Assembly (NCBI RefSeq): GCF_044647545.1
Contig: NZ_CP172818.1
Length of the DNA stretch: 64,000 nucleotides
From: Escherichia coli
Lineage (GTDB): Bacteria > Pseudomonadota > Gammaproteobacteria > Enterobacterales > Enterobacteriaceae
Direction: 5' to 3' (one strand)
Below, piece by piece: positions 1-24,645 of the stretch (within the stretch, counting starts at the first letter, position 1; each line of letters begins with the position of its first letter). A program made the position numbers and the translations under genes. The notes under the pieces are model-generated. The model did no database searches and had not been told where the DNA came from. It saw only the letters and a list, made by a program, of their open reading frames with translations.

Positions 1-627
1 GGGATCGTGCCGCGCGTTCCGCCTATCGACGGGATCGATCATCCGAAGGTATTGAGTTATCTCGATGTACTGCGCGACAAAGCGCCGGTGGGCAACAAAG
101 TTGCCATCATCGGTTGTGGCGGAATTGGTTTTGATACGGCGATGTATTTAAGTCAGCCGGGCGAATCCACCAGCCAGAATATCGCCGGGTTCTGTAATGA
201 GTGGGGAATCGACAGTAGCCTGCAACAGGCCGGAGGTTTGAGTCCGCAAGGCATGCAAATCCCCCGTAGCCCACGGCAGATTGTGATGCTCCAGCGCAAA
301 GCCAGCAAACCAGGACAAGGGTTAGGCAAAACCACCGGCTGGATCCATCGCACCACCCTGCTCTCGCGCGGCGTGAAAATGATCCCAGGCGTAAGTTACC
401 AGAAGATCGACGATGACGGGCTGCATGTAGTGATCAACGGCGAAACGCAGGTACTAGCAGTGGACAATGTGGTGATCTGCGCGGGGCAAGAGCCAAACCG
501 CGCATTGGCGCAACCGCTGATTGATAGTGGGAAAACCGTGCATTTAATTGGCGGCTGCGATGTAGCTATGGAGCTGGACGCACGGCGGGCAATTGCCCAG
601 GGAACACGGCTGGCGCTGGAGATTTAA
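1..627 (+). CDS. fadH: 2,4-dienoyl-CoA reductase, C-terminal part (5' end lies outside the window)
   Basis: ORF open from window start; translation ends ...DARRAIAQGTRLALEI, matching the FadH C-terminus; followed by a palindromic REP-like hairpin. Confidence 0.85.
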   Translation, partial: GIVPRVPPIDGIDHPKVLSYLDVLRDKAPVGNKVAIIGCGGIGFDTAMYLSQPGESTSQNIAGFCNEWGIDSSLQQAGGLSPQGMQIPRSPRQIVMLQRKASKPGQGLGKTTGWIHRTTLLSRGVKMIPGVSYQKIDDDGLHVVINGETQVLAVDNVVICAGQEPNRALAQPLIDSGKTVHLIGGCDVAMELDARRAIAQGTRLALEI

Positions 628-640
628 ATCGTTGTTTGAA

Positions 641-665
641 GCGCCGGATGCGACGCATCCGGCAC
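641..665. repeat. REP-like palindromic element / hairpin downstream of fadH
   Basis: gccggatgcg-a-cgcatccggc near-perfect inverted repeat. Confidence 0.5.
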
Positions 666-671
666 GTCGCG

Positions 672-1088
672 TTAATCAATAAACAAGGCGGGAGAAATAC
701 CGAATCGCGTTGCCAGTTTTTTAGCGTGTTCCAGCGTTAATTTCCTCTTCCCGCTCAAAACGCGTGACACCATCGATTTACTGCCTATTTCCGGAAGATC
801 GGAAAGGGTTAAACCATATTGATCCATAAGGGTACGAATCACGGCTATACCGCCAGGCATGGCTTGAGCCATGGCATTAAATTCCACAAATTCGGGCGCT
901 GATTCTTCCCACGCGGTTATTTTGGCACACACCAGATCCAGTAAGGGGTTTTCAGGATCGTTGAGCAGCAGATGATCTACCAGTTCCAGCGCCTGGGTGT
1001 ATTGTTCCTCGTTCTGAATACCCGCCAGAAAAGGTGCCACAGCAGTTAGCTTTTCTCCTGCTTGCAAGATGTCGGCAATCGCAATCAT
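672..1088 (-). CDS. higA: HigA antitoxin (XRE-type HTH)
   Basis: 138 aa ORF; start ATG overlaps the stop of the upstream toxin reading frame (ATGA). Confidence 0.85.
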   Translation of the reverse strand: MIAIADILQAGEKLTAVAPFLAGIQNEEQYTQALELVDHLLLNDPENPLLDLVCAKITAWEESAPEFVEFNAMAQAMPGGIAVIRTLMDQYGLTLSDLPEIGSKSMVSRVLSGKRKLTLEHAKKLATRFGISPALFID

Positions 1089-1398
1089 TTTTTCCCCTTA
1101 GTACGATGAACGGCGGTAAAGAAATCGTATTCTTTATGCGTCATAACTTCACGTATGTAGCACTTTTGCGATTCAAAAAAGACCATTGCTACAACACGTA
1201 ATTCATTGCCCCGACATTGAAAACATAATGCTTATCCAGATATTTGAAGTTATCCAGAGAAGGGAATACTGCTTTTAATGACTCAGGTTTTTTGAAATAT
1301 CCCTTAGCAATCGTGTTCCCCAGAGCCACCAACTCCGTTTTATGTTGCGGGTATTTTTCCGCAGCATCTTTCAATGCTTTTTGAGTTATCAGGTGCAT
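1085..1398 (-). pseudogene. higB: HigB toxin (RelE/ParE-like) disrupted by a -1 frameshift
   Basis: N-terminal 66 residues in one frame (ORF 1189-1398, MHLITQKALKDAAEKYPQHK...), remainder (NELRVVAMVFFESQKCYIREVMTHKEYDFFTAVHRTKGKK) in a second frame ending in the ATGA overlap with higA; frames switch at a C4 run 1209-1212. Confidence 0.7.
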
Positions 1399-1410
1399 TC
1401 TTCATCACGT

Positions 1411-1457
1411 CCGTTGACAAATTGGCAATATGATAACATCCGTTGACAGATTGGCAA
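1411..1457. promoter_or_regulatory. Two 18-bp imperfect direct repeats upstream of higB; putative HigA operator/promoter
   Basis: ccgttgacaaattggcaa (1411-1428) and ccgttgacagattggcaa (1440-1457), each a near-palindrome, immediately upstream of the higB start. Confidence 0.4.
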
Positions 1458-1570
1458 CGAATGAATTTATCTGTGTGACGGAAGAATAAACGTAGAAAAA
1501 CGCTAAACAAGAGAATGTAGAGGATGGTGACAGGAATTTTTTGTTTTATGGAAGCGCGATTCCAGAACTG

Positions 1571-1670
1571 GGCAGACATTGCCGGATGCGACGCTTGCCG
1601 CGTCTTATCCGACCTGGGGGTAATGTGCTGAACGTATGCCGGATAAGGCGTTTACGCCGCATCCGGCAGG
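1571..1670. repeat. REP/BIME cluster
   Basis: gccggatgcgacgc ... gccggataaggcgtttacgccgcatccggca motifs typical of E. coli REP elements. Confidence 0.7.
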
Positions 1671-1682
1671 TAACCCCCAATC

Positions 1683-2819
1683 TTACCGACGACGCCCCAG
1701 CTTCACTGCTTTCAGCACCACAAATTTATTATTCGTGGCGATGGTGGTGCAGTTGCCGAAAATTTTCTTCAGTTTATGGAAGTAATCCAGGTGACGGTTG
1801 GCAACGATATACAGCTCGCCGTTGATTTTCAGGCAGCGGCGGGCGTGGTGGAACATCTCCCAGGCGACGTTATCGGTCAGCGCATGTTGCTGATGAAACG
1901 GCGGGTTGCAGAGCACAGCATTAAAACGGAAAGGCTCCACGCCGGAAAGCGCGTTGTTGATCATAAACTCGCAGCGATCCAGTGCCTCGGGCATGTTGGT
2001 TTCAACGTTCAAACGGCTGGAAGCAACCGCCATCGGTGATTCATCGACAAACACCACTTTCGCCTGCGGGTTTTTATCGAGCAATGTCAGGCCAATAACG
2101 CCATTACCGCAACCGAGATCGACAATCTCACCTTCGAGATTCTCTGGCAGATGTTGCATAAAGAAGCGCGCGCCAATATCCAGCCCGGTGCGGGAGAAGA
2201 CGTTCGCATGGTTGTGGATAGTCCAGTCAGTACCTTCCAGCTTCCAGCTAACGGTCTGCGGCGCATCGGCCAACGGCGGTTCGTTGAAGGTGCAGTTAAT
2301 CAGGCGCGCTTTCTTCCATGCCAGCGTGGTGGTGGTCGGACCGAGCACTTTTTCGAACAGTTCCAGTGTGGAAGTGTGAATGTCACGGGCTTTGGCACCG
2401 GCAATAATACGCGTATCTGGCGTGACCACTTTGCGCAGCGCACGCAGTTGCTGTTCCAGCAATGCCAGTGTTTTCGGCACTTTGATCAGCACCACACCCG
2501 GCTGTTGCGGGTAGTCGGCGGTGCTGTCGAGAAACTTCACGCTCGACTCATCAATCCCGTTGAGGCGTAAATTCTCGCGCGTGGCCAGTTCACTGATGTA
2601 TGAGTCACCAATGCTGTAGGGCTTATGTTCCGCCAGCGCACAGCTTAACGCACCAAAAGCATCATTCAGGATTAACACCAGGCCGCGGATCTCTGTGTCG
2701 TCCAACTGTTGCAGCAAATATTCATCCGCCGCTTCCCACGCCTGTAGCGGGTTAACGTCATCCGTCGCCGGAAAACGTTGTAGTGTCAGTGAACGGAAAC
2801 CGTTGTCTAAGTGGCTCAT
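1683..2819 (-). CDS. rlmG: 23S rRNA m2G1835 methyltransferase
   Basis: 378 aa ORF; class I methyltransferase motifs ([16 protein letters not shown]). Confidence 0.9.
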
Positions 2820-2903
2820 CGGCCCTCCTGAATGATAAAATTTCGACGTTGCCCCTGAAAAGGGTGCGTGAGTATACCCTTTTTCTCTTTTTCGTGGGCG
2901 GTT

Positions 2904-3407
2904 ATGAGCAATCTTACTTATCTTCAGGGTTATCCCGAGCAGCTACTTTCCCAGGTGCGAACGCTGATTAACGAACAGCGTCTGGGCGATGTGCTGGCAA
3001 AACGTTATCCGGGAACACACGACTACGCCACCGATAAAGCCCTCTGGCAATATACTCAGGATCTTAAAAATCAGTTTCTGCGCAATGCCCCGCCGATCAA
3101 TAAAGTGATGTATGACAATAAGATCCACGTGCTGAAAAACGCGCTCGGATTACATACTGCCGTTTCGCGTGTGCAGGGCGGCAAGCTGAAAGCAAAAGCA
3201 GAGATCCGCGTCGCTACCGTGTTTCGCAACGCGCCGGAACCGTTTTTGCGCATGATCGTGGTGCACGAGCTGGCGCACCTGAAGGAGAAAGAGCATAACA
3301 AAGCGTTTTACCAGTTGTGCTGTCATATGGAACCGCAGTACCACCAGCTTGAGTTCGACACCCGGCTGTGGCTAACGCAGTTGTCGCTTGGGCAGGACAA
3401 AATCTGA
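2904..3407 (+). CDS. ygjP: Putative metal-dependent hydrolase (DUF45/WLM-like, HExxH)
   Basis: ORF with internal start [11 protein letters not shown] giving 167 aa; HELAHL motif. Confidence 0.8.
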
Positions 3408-3483
3408 AAATGATGTCAGGCGTTATTTTTTCCTCCTTTAGCGCCTAAAATCGACCTCCTCCCTTTCGTTAAGGATAACGACC

Positions 3484-4176
3484 ATGCTGCGCGCATTTGC
3501 CCGCCTTCTTCTTCGTATTTGTTTTTCTCGCCGGACTCTTAAAATTGGCTGTTTATTGTTGCTTATAGCAGGAGCGACCATTTTTATTGCCGATCGCGTT
3601 ATGGTCAACGCCAGCAAGCAGCTGACCTGGAGTGATGTCAACGCCGTTCCGGCGCGGAACGTGGGTTTATTGCTGGGGGCGAGGCCGGGTAATCGCTACT
3701 TTACCCGACGTATTGATAGCGCCGCAGAGTTGTACCACGCCGGAAAAGTGAAATGGCTATTGGTGAGCGGCGATAATGGACGTAAAAATTACGATGAAGC
3801 GTCAGGAATGCAGCAAGCCTTGATCGCTAAAGGCGTACCGGCAAAAGCCATCTTCTGCGACTATGCCGGATTCTCAACGCTTGATTCGGTGGTGCGTGCC
3901 AACAAGGTGTTTAGTGAAAACCATATCACCATTATCTCGCAAGAATTTCATAACCAACGCGCCATCTGGCTGGCAAAACAGTATGGTATCGATGCTATCG
4001 GTTTTAACGCGCCAGACCTGAATATGAAGCACGGTTTATATACTCAACTGCGGGAAAAACTTGCCAGAGTCAGCGCGGTGATTGATGCGAAAATCCTCCA
4101 TCGCCAGCCGAAATATCTCGGGCCGTTGGTTATGATTGGGCCGTTTAGTGAGCATGGCTGTCCGGCAAAAGAATAA
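3484..4176 (+). CDS. ygjQ: DUF218 (ElyC/SanA-like) family protein
   Basis: 230 aa ORF with N-terminal hydrophobic segment. Confidence 0.8.
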
Positions 4177-4254
4177 TGCGTATCTGCGCACGTCGAAGAT
4201 AAAAAAGGCGTGCTACAGTGACGACAGAATCCCTTTATGGAGTATCCACGCGTT

Positions 4255-5241
4255 ATGATACGTTTCGCTGTGATTGGTACGAACTGGATCACTCGCCAGT
4301 TCGTCGAGGCCGCCCATGAGAGCGGTAAATACAAGTTAACCGCCGTCTATTCCCGCAGCCTTGAACAGGCCCAGCACTTCGCCAATGATTTTTCTGTCGA
4401 GCATCTGTTTACGTCGCTGGAAGCGATGGCAGAAAGCGATGCCATTGACGCGGTGTATATTGCCAGCCCAAATTCCCTGCACTTTTCCCAGACACAACTT
4501 TTCCTTAGTCACAAAATTCATGTGATTTGCGAGAAGCCACTGGCGTCGAATCAGGCGGAAGTGGATGCCGCCATTGCCTGTGCGCGGGAAAATCAGGTGG
4601 TGCTGTTTGAGGCATTTAAAACGGCCTACCTGCCGAACTTTCATCTGTTACGCCAGGCGCTGCCGAAAGTCGGCAAACTGCGTAAAGTCTTTTTCAACTA
4701 TTGCCAGTATTCCTCGCGGTATCAGCGTTACCTGGACGGAGAGAATCCCAACACCTTCAATCCGGCATTCTCCAACGGTTCGATTATGGATATCGGCTTT
4801 TACTGCCTGGCGTCGGCGGTGGCATTATTCGGTGAACCGAAAAGCGTGCAGGCAACCGCCAGTTTGCTGGCAAGCGGTGTGGATGCCCACGGCGTGGTGG
4901 TGATGGATTACGGTGATTTCAGCGTTACGTTGCAGCACTCAAAAGTGAGCGATTCTGTCCTGGCAAGCGAGATTCAGGGCGAAGCGGGATCGCTGGTGAT
5001 TGAAAAACTCTCTGAATGCCAGAAAGTCTGCTTTGTACCGCGTGGCAGCCAGATGCAGGATCTCACCCAGCCACAGCATATTAATACCATGCTCTACGAA
5101 GCAGAGCTGTTCGCTACCCTGGTGGATGAGCATCTGGTGAATCATCCAGGGCTGGCGGTCAGTCGTATCACCGCCAAACTGCTGACTGAGATCCGCCGCC
5201 AGACTGGGGTGATTTTTCCGGCAGATAACGTAAAACTATAA
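4255..5241 (+). CDS. ygjR: Gfo/Idh/MocA-family NAD(P)-dependent oxidoreductase
   Basis: Start chosen at MIRFAVIGTNWI (Rossmann GxGxxG-like N-terminus), 328 aa. Confidence 0.8.
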   Translation: MIRFAVIGTNWITRQFVEAAHESGKYKLTAVYSRSLEQAQHFANDFSVEHLFTSLEAMAESDAIDAVYIASPNSLHFSQTQLFLSHKIHVICEKPLASNQAEVDAAIACARENQVVLFEAFKTAYLPNFHLLRQALPKVGKLRKVFFNYCQYSSRYQRYLDGENPNTFNPAFSNGSIMDIGFYCLASAVALFGEPKSVQATASLLASGVDAHGVVVMDYGDFSVTLQHSKVSDSVLASEIQGEAGSLVIEKLSECQKVCFVPRGSQMQDLTQPQHINTMLYEAELFATLVDEHLVNHPGLAVSRITAKLLTEIRRQTGVIFPADNVKL

Positions 5242-5289
5242 TTGCCAAAGTAAAACAGTGTAAAAGGTATGTAACAGACCATTGACTGA

Positions 5290-5523
5290 CTGAATGGTCT
5301 GTCATACTTTGTTACCTGCAAAGGGGAGTAACTTCATTGTCGGTCGATCGTCATTACGATGTGTGAAAAACCACATCCGGTCACCGGGCAACCCGAAAGG
5401 AATACGCAGACGTATTCCTTTTTTGTTGTAAGTGAGACCTTGCCGGAAGGCGAGGTCTATGCATAAAAAGCAGCGGCTGACGTCTTCCGACGTTGGCCGT
5501 TTTTTTATGTGTAAGGAACTTCT
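5290..5523 (+). promoter_or_regulatory. alx 5' leader (yybP-ykoY-type Mn/pH-responsive leader with hairpin+U-run attenuators)
   Basis: Long untranslated leader before alx; hairpin aggaatacg-caga-cgtattcct followed by a T run at 5398-5426, and a second hairpin + T7 near 5465-5493. Confidence 0.5.
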
Positions 5524-6489
5524 ATGAATACTGTCGGCACGCCGTTGCTATGGGGCGGATTCGCTGTTGTTGTCACCATTATGCTGGCTATCGACCTGTT
5601 GTTGCAGGGGCGTCGTGGGGCACATGCCATGACCATGAAACAGGCTGCGGCCTGGTCGCTGGTCTGGGTGACGCTGTCGTTACTGTTTAACGCCGCTTTC
5701 TGGTGGTATCTGGTGCAAACCGAAGGTCGCGCCGTTGCCGATCCACAGGCACTGGCCTTTCTCACGGGTTATCTGATTGAGAAATCGCTGGCGGTCGATA
5801 ACGTCTTTGTCTGGCTGATGTTGTTCAGCTATTTCTCTGTTCCGGCGGCATTACAACGTCGCGTGCTGGTGTATGGCGTGCTTGGGGCGATTGTTCTGCG
5901 TACCATCATGATCTTCACTGGTAGCTGGCTGATTTCACAGTTCGACTGGATCTTGTATATCTTCGGTGCCTTCCTGCTGTTTACCGGCGTGAAGATGGCG
6001 CTGGCTCATGAAGATGAATCAGGCATTGGCGACAAGCCGCTGGTGCGCTGGCTACGCGGTCATTTACGCATGACCGACACCATCGACAACGAGCATTTCT
6101 TTGTGCGTAAGAATGGTTTGTTGTATGCCACGCCGCTGATGCTGGTGCTGATTCTGGTGGAGTTGAGCGACGTGATTTTCGCCGTGGATAGTATTCCGGC
6201 TATCTTCGCCGTGACCACCGATCCGTTTATTGTGCTGACCTCAAACCTGTTTGCGATCCTCGGCCTGCGTGCGATGTATTTCCTGCTGGCAGGTGTGGCA
6301 GAGCGTTTCTCGATGCTCAAATATGGTCTGGCGGTGATTCTGGTGTTTATCGGTATCAAGATGCTGATTGTCGACTTCTACCATATTCCGATCGCCGTCT
6401 CGCTGGGCGTGGTGTTTGGCATTCTGGTGATGACGTTTATTATCAACGCCTGGGTGAATTATCGGCATGATAAGCAGCGGGTAGAATAA
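5524..6489 (+). CDS. alx: TerC-family inner membrane protein (putative Mn exporter)
   Basis: 321 aa multi-pass membrane ORF. Confidence 0.9.
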
Positions 6490-6812
6490 TTTTTAATCTG
6501 CCTAAGCCGTGTACCCTGTCATCAACATGAGCACCGTTTTCTCCCTCTCCCCAAAAGGGGCGAGGGGACTGACCGAGTACTTTTTTGACGTTGTCATCAG
6601 TCTGGAAGCCGCACGTTGGGCTTTATTTTTATGTCAAATAAATGTAACCATTAAGTTGCAAAATATGACCTCTCTTTAAAATCCAGCATTTTTCGCTTCC
6701 CGAAGCTGTAACTTTCCTTATACTCGACCTTGCAAACACTTTGTTACATCCTGAAAGATGCGTCGACAGAACGCACCAGGGATGTGCGACAACACAATGA
6801 AAGGATCGAAAA

Positions 6813-8057
6813 ATGACTACGCAACGTTCACCGGGGCTATTCCGGCGTCTGGCTCATGGCAGCCTGGTAAAACAAATCCTGGTCGGCCTTGTTCTGGGGA
6901 TTCTTCTGGCATGGATCTCAAAACCCGCGGCGGAAGCTGTTGGTCTGTTAGGTACTTTGTTCGTCGGCGCACTGAAAGCCGTTGCCCCCATCCTGGTGTT
7001 GATGCTGGTAATGGCATCTATTGCTAACCACCAGCACGGGCAGAAAACCAATATCCGCCCTATTTTGTTCCTCTATCTGCTGGGCACCTTCTCTGCTGCT
7101 CTGGCCGCAGTAATCTTCAGTTTTGCCTTCCCTTCTACCCTGCACTTGTCCAGTAGCGCGGGTGATATTTCGCCGCCGTCAGGCATTGTAGAAGTAATGC
7201 GCGGGCTGGTAATGAGCATGGTTTCCAACCCCATTGACGCGCTGCTGAAAGGTAACTATATCGGGATCCTGGTGTGGGCAATTGGCCTCGGTTTCGCACT
7301 GCGTCACGGTAACGAGACCACCAAAAACCTGGTCAACGATATGTCGAATGCCGTCACCTTTATGGTGAAACTGGTCATTCGCTTCGCACCGATCGGTATT
7401 TTTGGTCTGGTTTCTTCTACCCTGGCAACCACCGGTTTCTCCACACTGTGGGGCTACGCGCAACTGCTGGTCGTGCTGGTTGGCTGTATGTTACTGGTGG
7501 CGCTGGTGGTTAACCCCTTGCTGGTGTGGTGGAAGATTCGTCGTAACCCGTTCCCGCTGGTGCTGCTGTGCCTGCGCGAAAGCGGCGTGTATGCCTTCTT
7601 CACCCGCAGCTCTGCGGCGAACATTCCGGTGAATATGGCGCTGTGTGAAAAGCTGAATCTGGATCGCGATACCTATTCCGTTTCTATTCCGCTGGGAGCC
7701 ACCATCAATATGGCGGGCGCAGCAATCACCATTACCGTGTTGACGCTGGCTGCGGTTAATACGCTGGGTATTCCGGTTGATCTGCCCACAGCGCTGCTGT
7801 TGAGCGTAGTGGCTTCTCTGTGTGCCTGTGGCGCATCCGGCGTGGCGGGGGGATCTTTGCTGCTGATCCCACTGGCCTGTAATATGTTCGGTATTTCGAA
7901 CGATATCGCCATGCAGGTGGTTGCCGTCGGCTTTATCATCGGCGTATTGCAGGACTCTTGCGAAACCGCGCTGAACTCTTCAACTGACGTGCTGTTCACT
8001 GCGGCAGCTTGCCAGGCGGAAGACGATCGTCTGGCAAATAGCGCCCTGCGTAACTAA
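6813..8057 (+). CDS. sstT: Serine/threonine:Na+ symporter
   Basis: 414 aa ORF, membrane protein. Confidence 0.9.
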
Positions 8058-8060
8058 TAC

Positions 8061-8612
8061 TTAGCCCCTTTCGTCTACGGCGGAAGGGGTTTTCTCCACT
8101 TTAAACGGATCAATTCCCCTTTTCTGCATCCGCCAGAAACGAATGATATTCAGGCCATTCATTAGCAGAAAACTCCCCTCAATCATCGTGCCGCCTATCG
8201 ACCCCGCCCAGAAGTTGTGAATCACCCAGCAACACGTTGAAAACCACATTACGCAGCGCATGGTCAGCCCTTTACAGCGGAACAGCGCCCAGGTACTGAC
8301 AATCGTGCCGATTACCGGCAGTAGTTCGACAGGATGATGGAACTTCGCGAGGCCAATTCCACCAGTCAGCACAATAAAAATCGCCATTACCCATAAGCTG
8401 CGCGTGCGTAAGGTAATCAATGTACGAATGGCATTAAGGATGGCACTGGCACCGGCAGGATAGGTGCCCAGAAGAAAAAAATGTACGCCAATAACGGCGC
8501 TATAGACCGAAAGTTGCTTTTTGAAGCGACGTTCGTCACGATTGAAAAATGTTGTGATACCAATCAGAAAGGCGATGACACCCACGCCCTGGGCCAGCCA
8601 ATACGCGGTCAT
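8061..8612 (-). CDS. ygjV: Inner membrane protein YgjV
   Basis: 183 aa hydrophobic ORF. Confidence 0.8.
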   Translation of the reverse strand: MTAYWLAQGVGVIAFLIGITTFFNRDERRFKKQLSVYSAVIGVHFFLLGTYPAGASAILNAIRTLITLRTRSLWVMAIFIVLTGGIGLAKFHHPVELLPVIGTIVSTWALFRCKGLTMRCVMWFSTCCWVIHNFWAGSIGGTMIEGSFLLMNGLNIIRFWRMQKRGIDPFKVEKTPSAVDERG

Positions 8613-8640
8613 GATAAATCCTTAGCAGGTATGGAAAAGC

Positions 8641-8676
8641 AAACGGCGCTTCACATTATGAAACGCCGTTTTTTAT
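8641..8676 (-). terminator. Hairpin with flanking A/T runs between ygjV and uxaA (likely uxaCA terminator, possibly bidirectional)
   Basis: aaacggcg...cgccgtttttt. Confidence 0.5.
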
Positions 8677-8694
8677 TAACAACTCATTTCGACT

Positions 8695-10182
8695 TTATAG
8701 CGTTACGCCGCTTTTGAAGATCGCCAGTTCGCGGAAGTCGTTACGCTCGTTGCAGGTTTGTTTACCGTTGGCAAACTCAACGATGGTGTCGATAAATTCT
8801 TCCAGCAACTGCGGCATCGCTTTACCGTGGATCAGCTGACCCGCGTCAAAGTCGATCCAGTGTTTTTTCTTCGCCGCCAGTTCACTGTTGGTGGCGATTT
8901 TCACCGTCGGCACAAATCCACCATACGGCGTACCACGACCAGTACTGAACAGCACCATATGGCAGCCCGCACCCGCCAGGGCGCTGGTCGCTACGGCATC
9001 GTTACCCGGCGCACTTAACAAGTTCAGCCCCGGCGTTTTCAGACGCTCGCCGTAACGCAGCACGTCAACCACGACACTGGAACCCGCTTTCTGGGTACAG
9101 CCAAGCGATTTATCTTCCAGCGTGGTGATACCGCCCGCTTTGTTCCCCGGTGATGGGTTTTCGTAGATCGGCTGGTCATGGGCAATAAAGTACTGTTTGA
9201 AGTCGTTGACCATGGTGACCAGTTTTTCAAACGTTGCTTCGTCGCGGCAATGGTCCATCAGCAACTGCTCTGCGCCAAACATCTCCGGCACTTCGGTCAG
9301 TACGGTAGTACCACCGTTAGCAATCACGTAGTCAGAGAAACGACCGAGCATTGGGTTGGCGGTAATACCGGAAAGACCGTCAGAACCGCCGCACTCCAGA
9401 CCAAACTTCAGTTCGCTGAGTTTGCCCGGCTCGCGCTTGTCGTTGCGCATCACGTTATACAACTGATGCAAATGCGCGATCCCGGCCTCGATTTCATCAT
9501 CCTGCTGTTGGCAGATCATGAAATGAACGCGTTCAGGATCGATATCGCCCAACGTTTCACGGAATGCGGCAACCTGGTTGTTTTCACAGCCCAGACCAAT
9601 CACCAGCACTGCGCCCGCGTTCGGGTGGCGCACCATGTTTTGCAGCATGGTGCGAGTATTGATGTGATCGTCGCCCAGTTGTGAGCAGCCGTAGGTGTGG
9701 CTGAAGAGGAACACGCCGTCGGTACCTTCAGCGTTGTTGGTCTCTTTCAGGAAACGGTTCTGGATCTGCCGCGCGATGCCGTTAACACAACCCACGGTTG
9801 GCAGGATCCACAGCTCATTACGCACCCCGACATCGCCGTTCGCGCGACGATAGATCTGCACTTCACGATCTGCCGCTTGCGCAGGCAGATCCTGAAAATC
9901 AGGTTGATAGCGATACTGATCCAGATCGCTCAGATTCGTGCGCGTATTGTGGGCGTGAACGTGTTCACCCGCCGCAATATCCGCCAATGCATAACCAATC
10001 GGCAGGCCATATTTAATGACGTTGGCCCCTTTTGCGATATCCGTTAACGCAAATTTATGTCCACGAGCAACATCCTGGCGCAGCGTAACAGTCTGGTTAT
10101 CGACACTGACTTCTGTGCCTTCAGCCAAATCCGCTAAAGCAACCGCGACGTTATCCAGCGCATGGATCTTGATGTATTGCAT
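8695..10182 (-). CDS. uxaA: Altronate dehydratase
   Basis: 495 aa ORF. Confidence 0.9.
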   Translation of the reverse strand: MQYIKIHALDNVAVALADLAEGTEVSVDNQTVTLRQDVARGHKFALTDIAKGANVIKYGLPIGYALADIAAGEHVHAHNTRTNLSDLDQYRYQPDFQDLPAQAADREVQIYRRANGDVGVRNELWILPTVGCVNGIARQIQNRFLKETNNAEGTDGVFLFSHTYGCSQLGDDHINTRTMLQNMVRHPNAGAVLVIGLGCENNQVAAFRETLGDIDPERVHFMICQQQDDEIEAGIAHLHQLYNVMRNDKREPGKLSELKFGLECGGSDGLSGITANPMLGRFSDYVIANGGTTVLTEVPEMFGAEQLLMDHCRDEATFEKLVTMVNDFKQYFIAHDQPIYENPSPGNKAGGITTLEDKSLGCTQKAGSSVVVDVLRYGERLKTPGLNLLSAPGNDAVATSALAGAGCHMVLFSTGRGTPYGGFVPTVKIATNSELAAKKKHWIDFDAGQLIHGKAMPQLLEEFIDTIVEFANGKQTCNERNDFRELAIFKSGVTL

Positions 10183-10196
10183 ATCAACCCCAGACC

Positions 10197-11711
<1,515 letters not shown>

Positions 11712-12091
11712 TCAATAAACGTAGTTAAAAAAATTACTCTCAAAGTGGTAAATCTCGCTGCAGGCCGCGCCAGTACTGGCCTCGTGGTCGTCAGGTAATG
11801 TCCCTACAAATATTCGCACATTTGTGATGGCTCTCACCTTTTAAAGTTGTATGACAAGTTATCTTTCTGCCGTCGCAAATCATAAGTCGACGGAATGCAA
11901 ATTGCCGATTCATTCATTTGTTAGATGAATCGGGTTAACCGGTACGGAAGCCGAATTAGCACGAAACTTTCATGGCAACGTTCGGGGCGTGCCGGTTTTT
12001 TTTCGGTTACCCGGTCGTAACTAACATCTTCAGCCTCTGGCGGGATGATGGCCGCGCTTCCTGCGGATATAACAAAACGATGAGGTTTTAC

Positions 12092-13390
12092 ATGCGTAAA
12101 ATTAAAGGGTTACGTTGGTATATGATCGCACTGGTGACGCTCGGCACCGTGCTTGGTTACCTGACGCGTAACACTGTGGCGGCAGCTGCGCCAACTCTGA
12201 TGGAAGAGTTAAACATCTCCACCCAACAGTATTCCTATATCATCGCAGCGTATTCTGCTGCTTATACGGTCATGCAACCGGTAGCGGGTTATGTACTGGA
12301 TGTGCTGGGTACGAAAATCGGTTATGCAATGTTTGCTGTACTGTGGGCCGTATTCTGTGGTGCAACCGCGCTGGCAGGTAGTTGGGGTGGCCTGGCTGTT
12401 GCTCGTGGTGCGGTCGGTGCCGCGGAAGCCGCGATGATTCCGGCGGGTCTGAAAGCCAGCTCCGAATGGTTCCCGGCGAAAGAGCGTTCCATCGCGGTAG
12501 GTTACTTTAACGTAGGTTCTTCGATTGGTGCGATGATTGCGCCGCCGCTGGTGGTATGGGCAATCGTGATGCACAGCTGGCAGATGGCATTTATCATCTC
12601 CGGTGCGTTGAGCTTTATCTGGGCGATGGCATGGCTGATTTTCTACAAGCATCCGCGCGACCAGAAACATCTGACCGATGAAGAACGCGACTACATTATT
12701 AATGGTCAGGAAGCCCAGCACCAGGTTGACACAGCGAAGAAAATGTCCGTTGGTCAGATCCTGCGCAACCGTCAGTTCTGGGGTATCGCGCTGCCGCGCT
12801 TCCTGGCAGAACCGGCATGGGGTACTTTTAACGCGTGGATCCCGCTGTTCATGTTTAAAGTTTACGGCTTTAACCTGAAAGAGATCGCGATGTTTGCCTG
12901 GATGCCGATGCTGTTTGCTGACCTCGGTTGTATCCTCGGTGGTTACCTGCCGCCGCTGTTCCAGCGTTGGTTTGGTGTGAACCTGATCGTTTCCCGTAAG
13001 ATGGTCGTAACGCTGGGTGCTGTGCTGATGATTGGCCCGGGTATGATCGGTCTGTTCACCAACCCGTATGTCGCGATTATGCTGCTGTGTATCGGTGGTT
13101 TTGCTCACCAGGCACTGTCTGGCGCACTGATTACGCTCTCTTCTGACGTGTTCGGTCGTAACGAAGTGGCGACGGCGAACGGTTTAACCGGGATGTCCGC
13201 ATGGCTGGCAAGTACGCTGTTTGCACTGGTAGTCGGTGCACTGGCTGACACCATCGGCTTCAGCCCGCTGTTCGCAGTTCTGGCAGTGTTCGACCTGTTA
13301 GGTGCGCTGGTTATCTGGACCGTGTTGCAGAACAAACCGGCGATTGAGGTGGCGCAGGAATCACATAACGATCCCGCACCGCAACATTAA
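12092..13390 (+). CDS. exuT: Hexuronate transporter (MFS)
   Basis: Start at [10 protein letters not shown] with upstream tgagg RBS gives 432 aa. Confidence 0.85.
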
Positions 13391-13414
13391 CGCTTAATGT
13401 AAGTCGTAATGACG

Positions 13415-13440
13415 AAGCCGCCTCTTCAGGCGGCTTTTTC
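13415..13440 (+). terminator. Rho-independent terminator after exuT
   Basis: aagccgcc-tcttca-ggcggcttttt. Confidence 0.6.
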
Positions 13441-23545: not shown

Positions 23546-23931
23546 TCAAGAAAATGCCAGGAACGGAGAAACACAAAGCAACAAACCAGTGACGATAATC
23601 AGGTACAGAGACATCCCTTTGTATTTGTGCAATGCCGGTACTTTGTAAACCAGCCACGCCGGGATCAGGCACCCTACCATGCCGAAAATCGGGCTACAGA
23701 TAGAGGTGAAGCTCAACACCGGTGCGTTCAGTACGATGGCGCTCCAGGCCAGCAAAATGGCGAAAATCATGATGCCGCGCTGAACGAGATTTTCGTTAAT
23801 CTTCTCGGCAGGCATCTTGCGACGCAGGATGTTCATTACGATCCCTTGCGTTGCTTCGCGAAAGCCTAAATAGACGCCAAAAAACGCGGTCATTACTGCA
23901 AAGATATTGAGAATGACGCTGACCCTTTCAC
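23546..23931 (-). pseudogene. cyuP: 3' fragment of the cysteine transporter gene cyuP (yhaO); 5' part replaced by anomalous sequence
   Basis: Reading frame ends ...VSVILNIFAVMTAFFGVYLGFREATQG...LLLCVSPFLAFS; upstream of codon ~23931 the frame runs into G/P/W-rich low-complexity translation. Confidence 0.75.

Positions 23932-24645
<714 letters not shown>

What the first reader, a model, noticed from the sequence alone, without database searches (positions are those of the whole stretch)
1085..1398. higB toxin gene interrupted by a -1 frameshift in a homopolymer while higA antitoxin is intact
The higB reading frame gives the expected N-terminus through ...DKHYVFNVG and then terminates after 3 more codons (ORF 1189-1398, 69 aa). 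The remaining C-terminal sequence (NELRVVAMVFFESQKCYIREVMTHKEYDFFTAVHRTKGKK) is present in a different frame and ends in the canonical ATGA overlap with higA. The switch maps to a 4-nt C run (1209-1212, G4 on the coding strand), consistent with a single-base loss from a G5 tract. This is either genuine toxin inactivation (common for chromosomal TA loci) or a homopolymer sequencing error, which would fit the poly-G/poly-C trouble seen at 23932-24645.
Basis: seen in the sequence. Interest (0 to 1): 0.5.

Follow-up and report, generated by a model that had tools for sequence, protein, structure and literature searches.

The report
Clone-wide frameshifted higB toxin pseudogene
The toxin gene of the E. 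coli higBA toxin-antitoxin pair has really lost one G from a GGGGG run, a change inherited by a whole clone and not a sequencing error; it is an ordinary dead-toxin pseudogene that public annotation already flags.

Summary
higB (1085-1398, minus strand) has GGGG at 1209-1212 where intact alleles have GGGGG. The frame stops at TAG 1189-1191, giving 69 aa. The rest of HigB is in another frame and ends in the ATGA overlap with an intact higA (672-1088).

It is not a sequencing error.
- The exact 80-mer with G4 occurs in 58 of 5,426 complete E. coli genomes.
- These are exactly the 58 genomes that are at least 99.9% identical to the window over 25 kb. They form one clone, which includes the strain deposited as 'ST648'.
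- RefSeq already labels higB 'frameshifted' in the two clone members inspected.
- The 13.4 kb around the site is base-for-base identical to an independent assembly.
- No genome carries G4 in the K-12 sequence context, so the tract is not a hotspot or a phase switch.

Adding the G back gives a protein 100% identical to crystallised K-12 HigB. The truncated product loses the C-terminal third of the toxin domain.

Other lineages killed higB independently, by a 197-bp deletion (21 genomes) and a ~325-bp deletion (1,520 genomes). higA was intact in every example inspected.

Verdict: an ordinary, already annotated toxin pseudogene with a retained antitoxin. Low interest.

The parts
1085..1398 (-). 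higB pseudogene: the full extent of the former 104-codon toxin gene, now 314 nt after loss of one G
   Evidence: Alignment to MG1655 and EcPF18 higB. PGAP annotates the same interval as 'higB, frameshifted' in clone-mates. The repaired translation is 100% identical to PDB 5IFG_A.
1209..1212 (-). G4 run on the coding strand (C4 on the + strand): the site of the 1-nt deletion from the ancestral G5
   Evidence: The exact 80-mer carrying G4 is in 58 of 5,426 genomes. G4 in the K-12 sequence context is in 0 genomes.
1189..1398 (-). Truncated HigB ORF: 63 native residues plus 6 frameshifted residues (AMNYVL), with the premature TAG at 1189-1191
   Evidence: Its Pfam HigB_toxin match covers only model positions 2-47 of 74, against 2-72 for the repaired protein.
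1085..1186 (-). Stranded C-terminal part of higB. It is readable as a 33-aa ORF (MVFFESQ...KGKK) whose ATG lies 2 nt after the premature TAG and whose TGA overlaps the higA ATG.
   Evidence: Whether it is translated by restart after the stop is inference only.
672..1088 (-). higA antitoxin and autorepressor, intact at 138 aa
   Evidence: E = 4.4e-86 over residues 1-138 to PDB 5IFG_B. It differs from K-12 HigA at 1 residue and is identical in protein to HigA of EcPF18, which has an intact higB (same accession WP_000560269.1).
1094..1099 (-). AAGGGG, a Shine-Dalgarno-like motif 5 nt upstream of the higA ATG
   Evidence: Read directly. It is retained in all three higB lesion alleles. Its function is inferred.
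1430..1457 (-). Promoter-like site of the higBA operon: -35 TTGCCA, 16-nt spacer, TG-extended -10 TATCAT
   Evidence: Consensus scan gives 10 of 12 matches. The K-12 operon has a single HigA-repressed promoter upstream of higB (PMC2814082).
1404..1457 (-). Two 25-nt direct repeats (1404-1428 and 1433-1457, spacing 29 nt), each holding an imperfect TTGCCAAnnTGTCAA palindrome: putative HigA operators
   Evidence: In strain 98203 the two repeats have collapsed into one through a 29-bp deletion. Binding was not tested here.

Best explanation
This is a genuine, inherited null allele of the chromosomal higB toxin gene (K-12 ygjN type, a RelE-superfamily ribosome-dependent mRNA interferase). An ancestor of one E. 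coli clone, which includes the strain deposited as 'ST648', lost one G from the GGGGG tract spanning codons 63-64. Translation now shifts after Gly63, reads six wrong residues and stops. The product lacks residues 64-104, the C-terminal third of the toxin domain, so it is expected to be non-toxic. The operon promoter, the operator repeats and higA are untouched. HigA is therefore most likely still made and still represses its own promoter, as an orphan antitoxin. Apart from the missing G, the higB region aligned here (about 440 nt) is identical to an intact relative, so the event looks recent, and loss of the toxin is probably neutral or mildly advantageous. What is shown: the deletion, its clonal inheritance, the truncation and the intact higA. 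What is inferred: loss of toxicity, continued HigA expression and the selective interpretation.
For: - Sequence. G4 replaces G5, giving a 69-aa ORF, with the C-terminus in another frame.
- Identity of the gene. The repaired protein is 100% identical to K-12 HigB in PDB 5IFG, 6KML and 5YCL, and matches Pfam PF09907 over residues 20-92. The truncated ORF covers only model positions 2-47 of 74.
- Inheritance. The exact 80-mer is in 58 of 5,426 genomes. The same 58 accessions are the only genomes at least 99.9% identical to window 1-25000, and the next relatives drop to 98.5%.
- Annotation. PGAP writes 'frameshifted' for two clone-mates.
- No general homopolymer error. Window 1-13436 is identical to an independent assembly, with 0 gaps.
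- Single origin. G4 in the K-12 context is found in 0 genomes. EcPF18 has the same GTC context with G5 and an intact higB.
- Recent event. Window and EcPF18 differ only by the missing G across the aligned higB region and by 1 synonymous base in higA.
- Loss of function is plausible. In the Salmonella homologue SehA, modelled on 5IFG, the residues needed for toxicity lie mostly in the C-terminal helix at positions 88-98 (bioRxiv 10.1101/2024.07.09.602740). The K-12 operon has a single HigA-autorepressed promoter (PMC2814082).
- Loss is tolerated. A higBA deletion in CFT073 showed no defect in mouse UTI competition (PMC3464220). higB has also been destroyed independently by two other deletions (21 and 1,520 genomes), with higA intact in the examples inspected.
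Against: - No reads were available for this particular assembly. The argument rests on the allele being shared by the clone, not on a pileup.
- Loss of toxicity was not measured.
- An ATG 2 nt after the premature stop opens the C-terminal 33 codons, so production of two HigB fragments cannot be excluded.
- Four further records have a best piece at 99% identity or more to the 25-kb query but were not listed. I could not check whether any is a clone member without the G4 allele.
- MLST was not computed. The 'ST648' label comes from a strain name in the hit list and from my own knowledge of IMT16316 and MS6198.
Confidence: 0.93

Rival explanations
1. The G4 is a homopolymer miscall in this assembly, and the real genome has G5 and an intact higB.
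For: The window does contain assembly trouble elsewhere. There is a roughly 707-nt poly-C/poly-G junk patch at 23937-24643. There is also a unique junction at 13436|13437, with nearby small differences, that no complete genome shares.
Against: - The identical allele is in 58 independent complete assemblies, and these are precisely the window's clone.
- None of the 2,768 other genomes that carry this part of higB matches the window's G4 80-mer exactly, and none matches the K-12-context G4 version.
- There is no indel in the 13,436 nt around the site relative to an independent assembly.
- The artefacts elsewhere are block-scale, not single-base.
Confidence: 0.02
2. The G tract is a switch: a phase-variable contingency tract, or a site of programmed -1 ribosomal frameshifting or transcriptional slippage. 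Full-length HigB would then still be made at a low, regulated level.
For: A -1 shift at the G run would restore the exact wild-type protein (read). Homopolymeric G tracts are classic slippage sites (general knowledge).
Against: - The tract is only 4 nt. Known contingency tracts and slippage sites are usually 7 nt or longer (general knowledge).
- All 58 clone genomes have G4 and none has reverted.
- No other lineage has flipped to G4.
- The sequence C-GGG-GCA is not an X-XXY-YYZ slippery heptamer.
- Relatives with G5 encode the protein in a single frame.
Confidence: 0.02
3. Split toxin or relay. Ribosomes stopping at TAG 1189-1191 restart at ATG 1186. They make a 33-aa C-terminal fragment and carry translational coupling through to higA via the ATGA overlap. 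The two HigB fragments might even reassemble into a weak toxin.
For: The stop and the ATG are 2 nt apart, and the second ORF ends in the native ATGA overlap with higA. Restart after a nearby stop is a known bacterial phenomenon (general knowledge).
Against: - No Shine-Dalgarno-like motif precedes ATG 1186.
- Residues 64-71 (GNELRVVA) would be missing from both fragments.
- higA has its own AAGGGG motif and does not need a relay.
- In the other lineages higA persists after deletions that remove this segment altogether.
Confidence: 0.04

Closest known systems
E. coli K-12 higBA (ygjNM) type II toxin-antitoxin operon (Christensen-Dalsgaard et al. 2010, PMC2814082; structures 5IFG, 6KML, 5YCL)
   Same: Same chromosomal site between fadH and rlmG, and the same toxin-first gene order with the ATGA overlap. 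The promoter and operator region differs from K-12 by 2 SNPs. HigA differs by 1 residue. The repaired HigB is 100% identical.
   Different: One G is missing in codons 63-64, so the toxin is truncated at 69 aa. This is a degenerate allele, not a working toxin-antitoxin pair.
RefSeq/PGAP-annotated 'higB, frameshifted' pseudogene in clone-mate genomes (for example IMT16316 NZ_CP023815.1, WP4-S18-ESBL-09 NZ_AP022098.1)
   Same: Identical sequence over the 501-nt query. In WP4-S18-ESBL-09 the locus is identical over 13.4 kb. Both records are annotated as a frameshifted pseudogene.
   Different: Nothing at the locus itself. The window's assembly differs elsewhere (a missing fimbrial operon and a junk patch).
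Orphan antitoxins left by toxin decay in E. coli chromosomes (surveyed in mBio 2023, PMC10790755)
   Same: The toxin is lost and the antitoxin retained. The same outcome was reached at this locus by two other, independent deletions.
   Different: Here the lesion is a single-base frameshift with the promoter intact. I found no paper describing this higB allele specifically.

Membership tests
HigBA type II toxin-antitoxin module (K-12 ygjNM type) | Toxin gene first, antitoxin second, in one operon with overlapping stop and start | tested here: met
   The higB remnant (1085-1398) lies upstream of higA (672-1088), with an ATGA overlap at 1085-1088.
HigBA type II toxin-antitoxin module (K-12 ygjNM type) | Toxin carries a complete RelE-like HigB_toxin domain (PF09907) in one open frame | tested here: not met
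The actual ORF stops at 69 aa and covers only positions 2-47 of 74. So this is a pseudogene of the family, not a functional member.
HigBA type II toxin-antitoxin module (K-12 ygjNM type) | Cognate HTH antitoxin HigA is intact | tested here: met
   138 aa, E = 4.4e-86 over its full length to 5IFG_B, with 1 aa difference from K-12. The match to NCBIfam TIGR02607 is below its cut-off (18.7 against 47.7 bits); that model describes a different HigA subfamily.
HigBA type II toxin-antitoxin module (K-12 ygjNM type) | Single promoter upstream of the toxin gene, autorepressed by HigA through operator repeats | tested here: inconclusive
   A promoter-like site (10 of 12 matches) and two 25-nt repeats are present, as expected from PMC2814082. 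Repression cannot be tested with these tools.
HigBA type II toxin-antitoxin module (K-12 ygjNM type) | Toxin arrests growth by ribosome-dependent mRNA cleavage, and the antitoxin neutralises it | not testable with these tools
   This was shown for the K-12 allele (PMC2814082). Loss of activity for the 69-aa product is inferred from the missing C-terminal third of the domain.
Phase-variable or programmed-frameshift homopolymer | Long homopolymer, with both tract lengths present among close relatives | tested here: not met
   The tract is 4 nt. All 58 clone genomes have G4, and no genome has G4 in the K-12 context.
Phase-variable or programmed-frameshift homopolymer | Slippery heptamer (X XXY YYZ) or an equivalent recoding signal at the shift site | tested here: not met
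   The sequence at the site is GTC GGG GCA. This was judged by inspection only; no stimulatory structure was searched for.
Sequencing or assembly artefact | The allele is not reproduced in independent assemblies of the same lineage | tested here: not met
   It is reproduced in 58 of 58 clone genomes.
Sequencing or assembly artefact | Other single-base homopolymer indels in the surrounding sequence | tested here: not met
   There are 0 mismatches and 0 gaps over window 1-13436 against NZ_AP022098.1. The only 1-nt gap in 23.9 kb is at 23924, next to the junk patch.
Orphan antitoxin kept by selection | Antitoxin ORF intact and evolving under purifying selection after toxin loss | tested here: inconclusive
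   higA is intact in examples of all three lesion types. Differences are mostly synonymous, for example 7 nt and 1 aa against K-12. Numbers are too small and the ST648 event too recent for a dN/dS test.

The most novel reading that the evidence does not exclude
At this locus E. coli repeatedly discards the toxin and keeps the antitoxin. Three independent lesions (a 1-nt frameshift, a 197-bp deletion and a ~325-bp deletion) together affect about 1,599 of 4,371 higA-carrying complete genomes (37%). On this reading, HigA is kept by selection as a free-standing regulator, or as an 'anti-addiction' factor against plasmid- or phage-borne HigB-type toxins, and is not simply awaiting decay.
Probability: 0.25. 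Interest if true: 0.35.

Novelty: already known. Interest (0 to 1): 0.1.

Why it matters
It matters little on its own. Pseudogenised chromosomal toxins with surviving antitoxins are common, and RefSeq already annotates this allele as frameshifted.

It has three practical uses.
- It tells an annotator that the frameshift should be kept as a pseudogene and not 'corrected'.
- It gives a simple marker for the clone, because the G4 allele was exclusive to it among 5,426 complete genomes.
- It adds one data point to a locus-wide pattern of toxin loss with antitoxin retention, which could be used to test whether orphan HigA has a function of its own.

Tried and rejected
- Sequencing error. Rejected on clone-wide reproducibility and on perfectly identical flanks.
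- Mutational hotspot or phase variation. Probed with a synthetic 80-mer carrying G4 in the K-12 context; no genome matched exactly.
- Link to the poly-G/poly-C patch. That patch is a roughly 700-nt block replacing an IS1 site and has no similarity to IS1. It is a different type of problem.
- A single common deletion explaining all genomes that lack higB. The junction probe from strain 98203 found only 21 genomes. A second junction probe accounted for the remaining 1,520.
- NCBIfam naming. It gave no useful HigB model and only a sub-threshold HigA hit, so Pfam and PDB were used instead.
- Literature. Searches for a published description of the ST648 higB frameshift found none. The one higB mention in an ST648 paper concerns a plasmid-borne higBA.
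- The sequence type of IMT16316 was not stated in the passages retrieved.

Full report
**What is there.** The first 3.4 kb of the window is the E. coli fadH / higA / higB / rlmG / ygjP region, with higBA on the minus strand.
- higA is an intact 138-codon ORF at 672-1088.
- The higB frame opens at ATG 1398 and reads the K-12 HigB sequence up to ...DKHYVFNVG. It then reads AMNYVL and stops at TAG 1189-1191, giving 69 aa.
- The rest of HigB (GNELRVV...TKGKK) is read in another frame from 1210 to 1085. Its TGA overlaps the higA ATG as ATGA.
- The frame change lies at a GGGG run at 1209-1212 on the coding strand.
One slip: six wrong codons precede the stop, not three.

**What the lesion is.** MG1655 has GTT-GGG-GGC at this point, and the ST131-type strain EcPF18 has GTC-GGG-GGC with an intact, annotated higB. 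The window has GTC-GGG-GC.
- Across the roughly 440 aligned bases, the window differs from EcPF18 only by this one missing G.
- In higA the two differ by one synonymous base.
- With the G restored, the protein is 100% identical over all 104 residues to the crystallised K-12 HigB (5IFG_A, E = 5.9e-68; also 6KML and 5YCL). It matches Pfam HigB_toxin PF09907 over residues 20-92, model positions 2-72 of 74.
- The real 69-aa ORF covers only model positions 2-47.

**Real mutation or sequencing error.** It is a real mutation.
- An 80-nt probe centred on the run matches exactly in 58 of 5,426 complete RefSeq E. coli genomes. The other 2,768 genomes that have this part of higB differ from it, and every such row inspected spans 81 nt, meaning G5.
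- Separately, the first 25 kb of the window is at least 99.9% identical to just 58 genomes, and the next best drop to 98.5%.
- The two lists of 58 accessions are identical.
- These genomes come from humans, dogs, poultry, wild birds, pigs and wastewater, in many countries and years. They include the strain deposited as 'ST648'.
- I know IMT16316 and MS6198 as ST648 strains from memory. MLST was not computed here.
- PGAP labels higB 'frameshifted' in the two clone members I opened.
- Window 1-13436 matches one of them with no mismatch and no gap, so the assembly is not prone to single-base homopolymer errors here.
- A synthetic probe with G4 in the K-12 sequence context matched no genome exactly. 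The G loss therefore happened once, and the tract is neither a hotspot nor a phase switch.

**The poly-G/poly-C patch.** Positions 23937-24643 are indeed junk.
- The patch sits exactly where a clone-mate carries an IS1 copy, and it has no similarity to IS1.
- It is a block-scale failure of assembly or gap-filling at a repeat. It says nothing about the G4 run.

**How it most likely works.** K-12 HigB is a ribosome-dependent mRNA interferase. It is neutralised by HigA, and the operon has a single promoter upstream of higB that HigA represses (PMC2814082).
- In the window the promoter-like site is intact: -35 TTGCCA, 16-nt spacer, TG-extended -10 TATCAT, at 1430-1457, with 10 of 12 matches.
- The two 25-nt operator-like repeats (1404-1428 and 1433-1457) are also intact. 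The region differs from K-12 by two SNPs, both shared with EcPF18.
- The frameshift removes residues 64-104, the last third of the toxin domain.
- In the Salmonella homologue SehA, modelled on 5IFG, the residues needed for toxicity lie mostly in the C-terminal helix at positions 88-98 (bioRxiv 10.1101/2024.07.09.602740).
- I therefore infer that the 69-aa product is non-toxic.
- I also infer that HigA is still expressed from its own AAGGGG motif (1094-1099, 5 nt before the ATG) and still represses the promoter, as an orphan antitoxin.
- These last steps are inference and were not tested.
- One detail read from the sequence: an ATG at 1186, two bases after the premature stop, opens the remaining 33 codons, which end in the ATGA overlap. 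A stop-restart relay is therefore possible, but no ribosome-binding motif precedes that ATG, and I rate it unlikely.

**Wider context at the locus.** Full-length higA is present in 4,371 of 5,426 genomes, but the central part of higB is present in only 2,826.
- The nearest relatives outside the clone (strain 98203 and others) carry a different lesion. It is a 197-bp deletion inside higB between short AAGGG...AAAAAA repeats, plus a 29-bp collapse of the two operator repeats. A junction probe finds it in 21 genomes.
- A third allele removes about 325 bp, covering the promoter and most of higB (all but its last 78 nt). Its junction probe finds 1,520 genomes.
- The counts 2,826 + 1,520 + 21 = 4,367 account for almost all of the 4,371 higA carriers.
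- So higB has been destroyed at least three separate times, in about 37% of the genomes that carry higA.
- higA stayed intact in every example inspected, with mostly synonymous differences.
- A higBA deletion in CFT073 has no phenotype in mouse UTI competition (PMC3464220), which fits toxin loss being tolerated.
- Abundant orphan antitoxins in E. coli have been described in general terms (PMC10790755). I found no paper on this particular allele.

**Comparison and verdict.** The locus is a degenerate member of the K-12-type HigBA family.
- Gene order, overlap, antitoxin and promoter region all match the family.
- The defining complete toxin ORF is absent.
- It fails the tests for a phase-variable or recoding tract, and it fails the tests for an artefact.
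- The allele is already annotated as a frameshifted pseudogene in public records.
- It is ordinary: interest 0.1, novelty 'already known'.
- The only mildly interesting reading left open is that orphan HigA is kept by selection across the three independent toxin losses.

Noticed in passing
window 23937-24643: About 707 nt of poly-C/poly-G-rich, non-coding-looking junk. It lies exactly where clone-mate NZ_AP022098.1 has an IS1 copy and has no similarity to IS1. A 1-nt gap at 23924 sits beside it. This looks like an assembly or gap-filling artefact at a repeat.
   Followed up: partly
window 13436|13437 (between exuT and exuR): A 5.3-kb CS1-type fimbrial operon (CfaE/CblD adhesin, TcfC-like usher, major subunit, chaperone) is absent from the window. 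It is present at this spot in the clone-mate aligned base by base, and the piece and span pattern of the other 57 is consistent with it. The window's junction is found in 0 of 5,426 complete genomes. One SNP and a 3-nt indel lie within 70 nt of it. This is either a unique deletion or an assembly collapse.
   Followed up: partly
L003 (NZ_CP173554.1, strain 98203) 1040-1190; equivalent to window 1094-1290 and 1410-1440: The nearest non-clone relatives carry an independent higB lesion: a 197-bp internal deletion between short direct repeats, plus a 29-bp deletion that fuses the two operator repeats into one. higA is intact. A junction probe finds 21 genomes.
   Followed up: yes
L005-L007 (for example NZ_CP027338.1) 820-905; equivalent to window about 1165-1490: A third, very common allele (junction probe: 1,520 genomes) deletes about 325 bp. 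It removes the higBA promoter, both operator repeats and most of higB (all but its last 78 nt), yet higA stays intact and is annotated. How higA is transcribed there is unexplained.
   Followed up: partly
window 1433-1457 versus MG1655: Operator-like repeat 1 differs from K-12 by two SNPs. One of them breaks the perfect CCGTTGCCA-ATC-TGGCAACGG palindrome of K-12 and makes repeat 1 resemble repeat 2. The same SNPs occur in EcPF18, which has an intact higB, so they are not linked to the frameshift.
   Followed up: no
window about 1546-1680 and about 628-668: REP/BIME-like palindromic units (GCCGGATGCGGCGT...ACGCCTTATCCGGC) flank the higBA module on both sides. This was seen in the sequence only.
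   Followed up: no
E. coli genome collection, higA probe: About 1,050 of 5,426 complete genomes have no higA match at all, so the whole module is absent or replaced in roughly a fifth of the species. One copy of the locus lies on a plasmid record.
   Followed up: no
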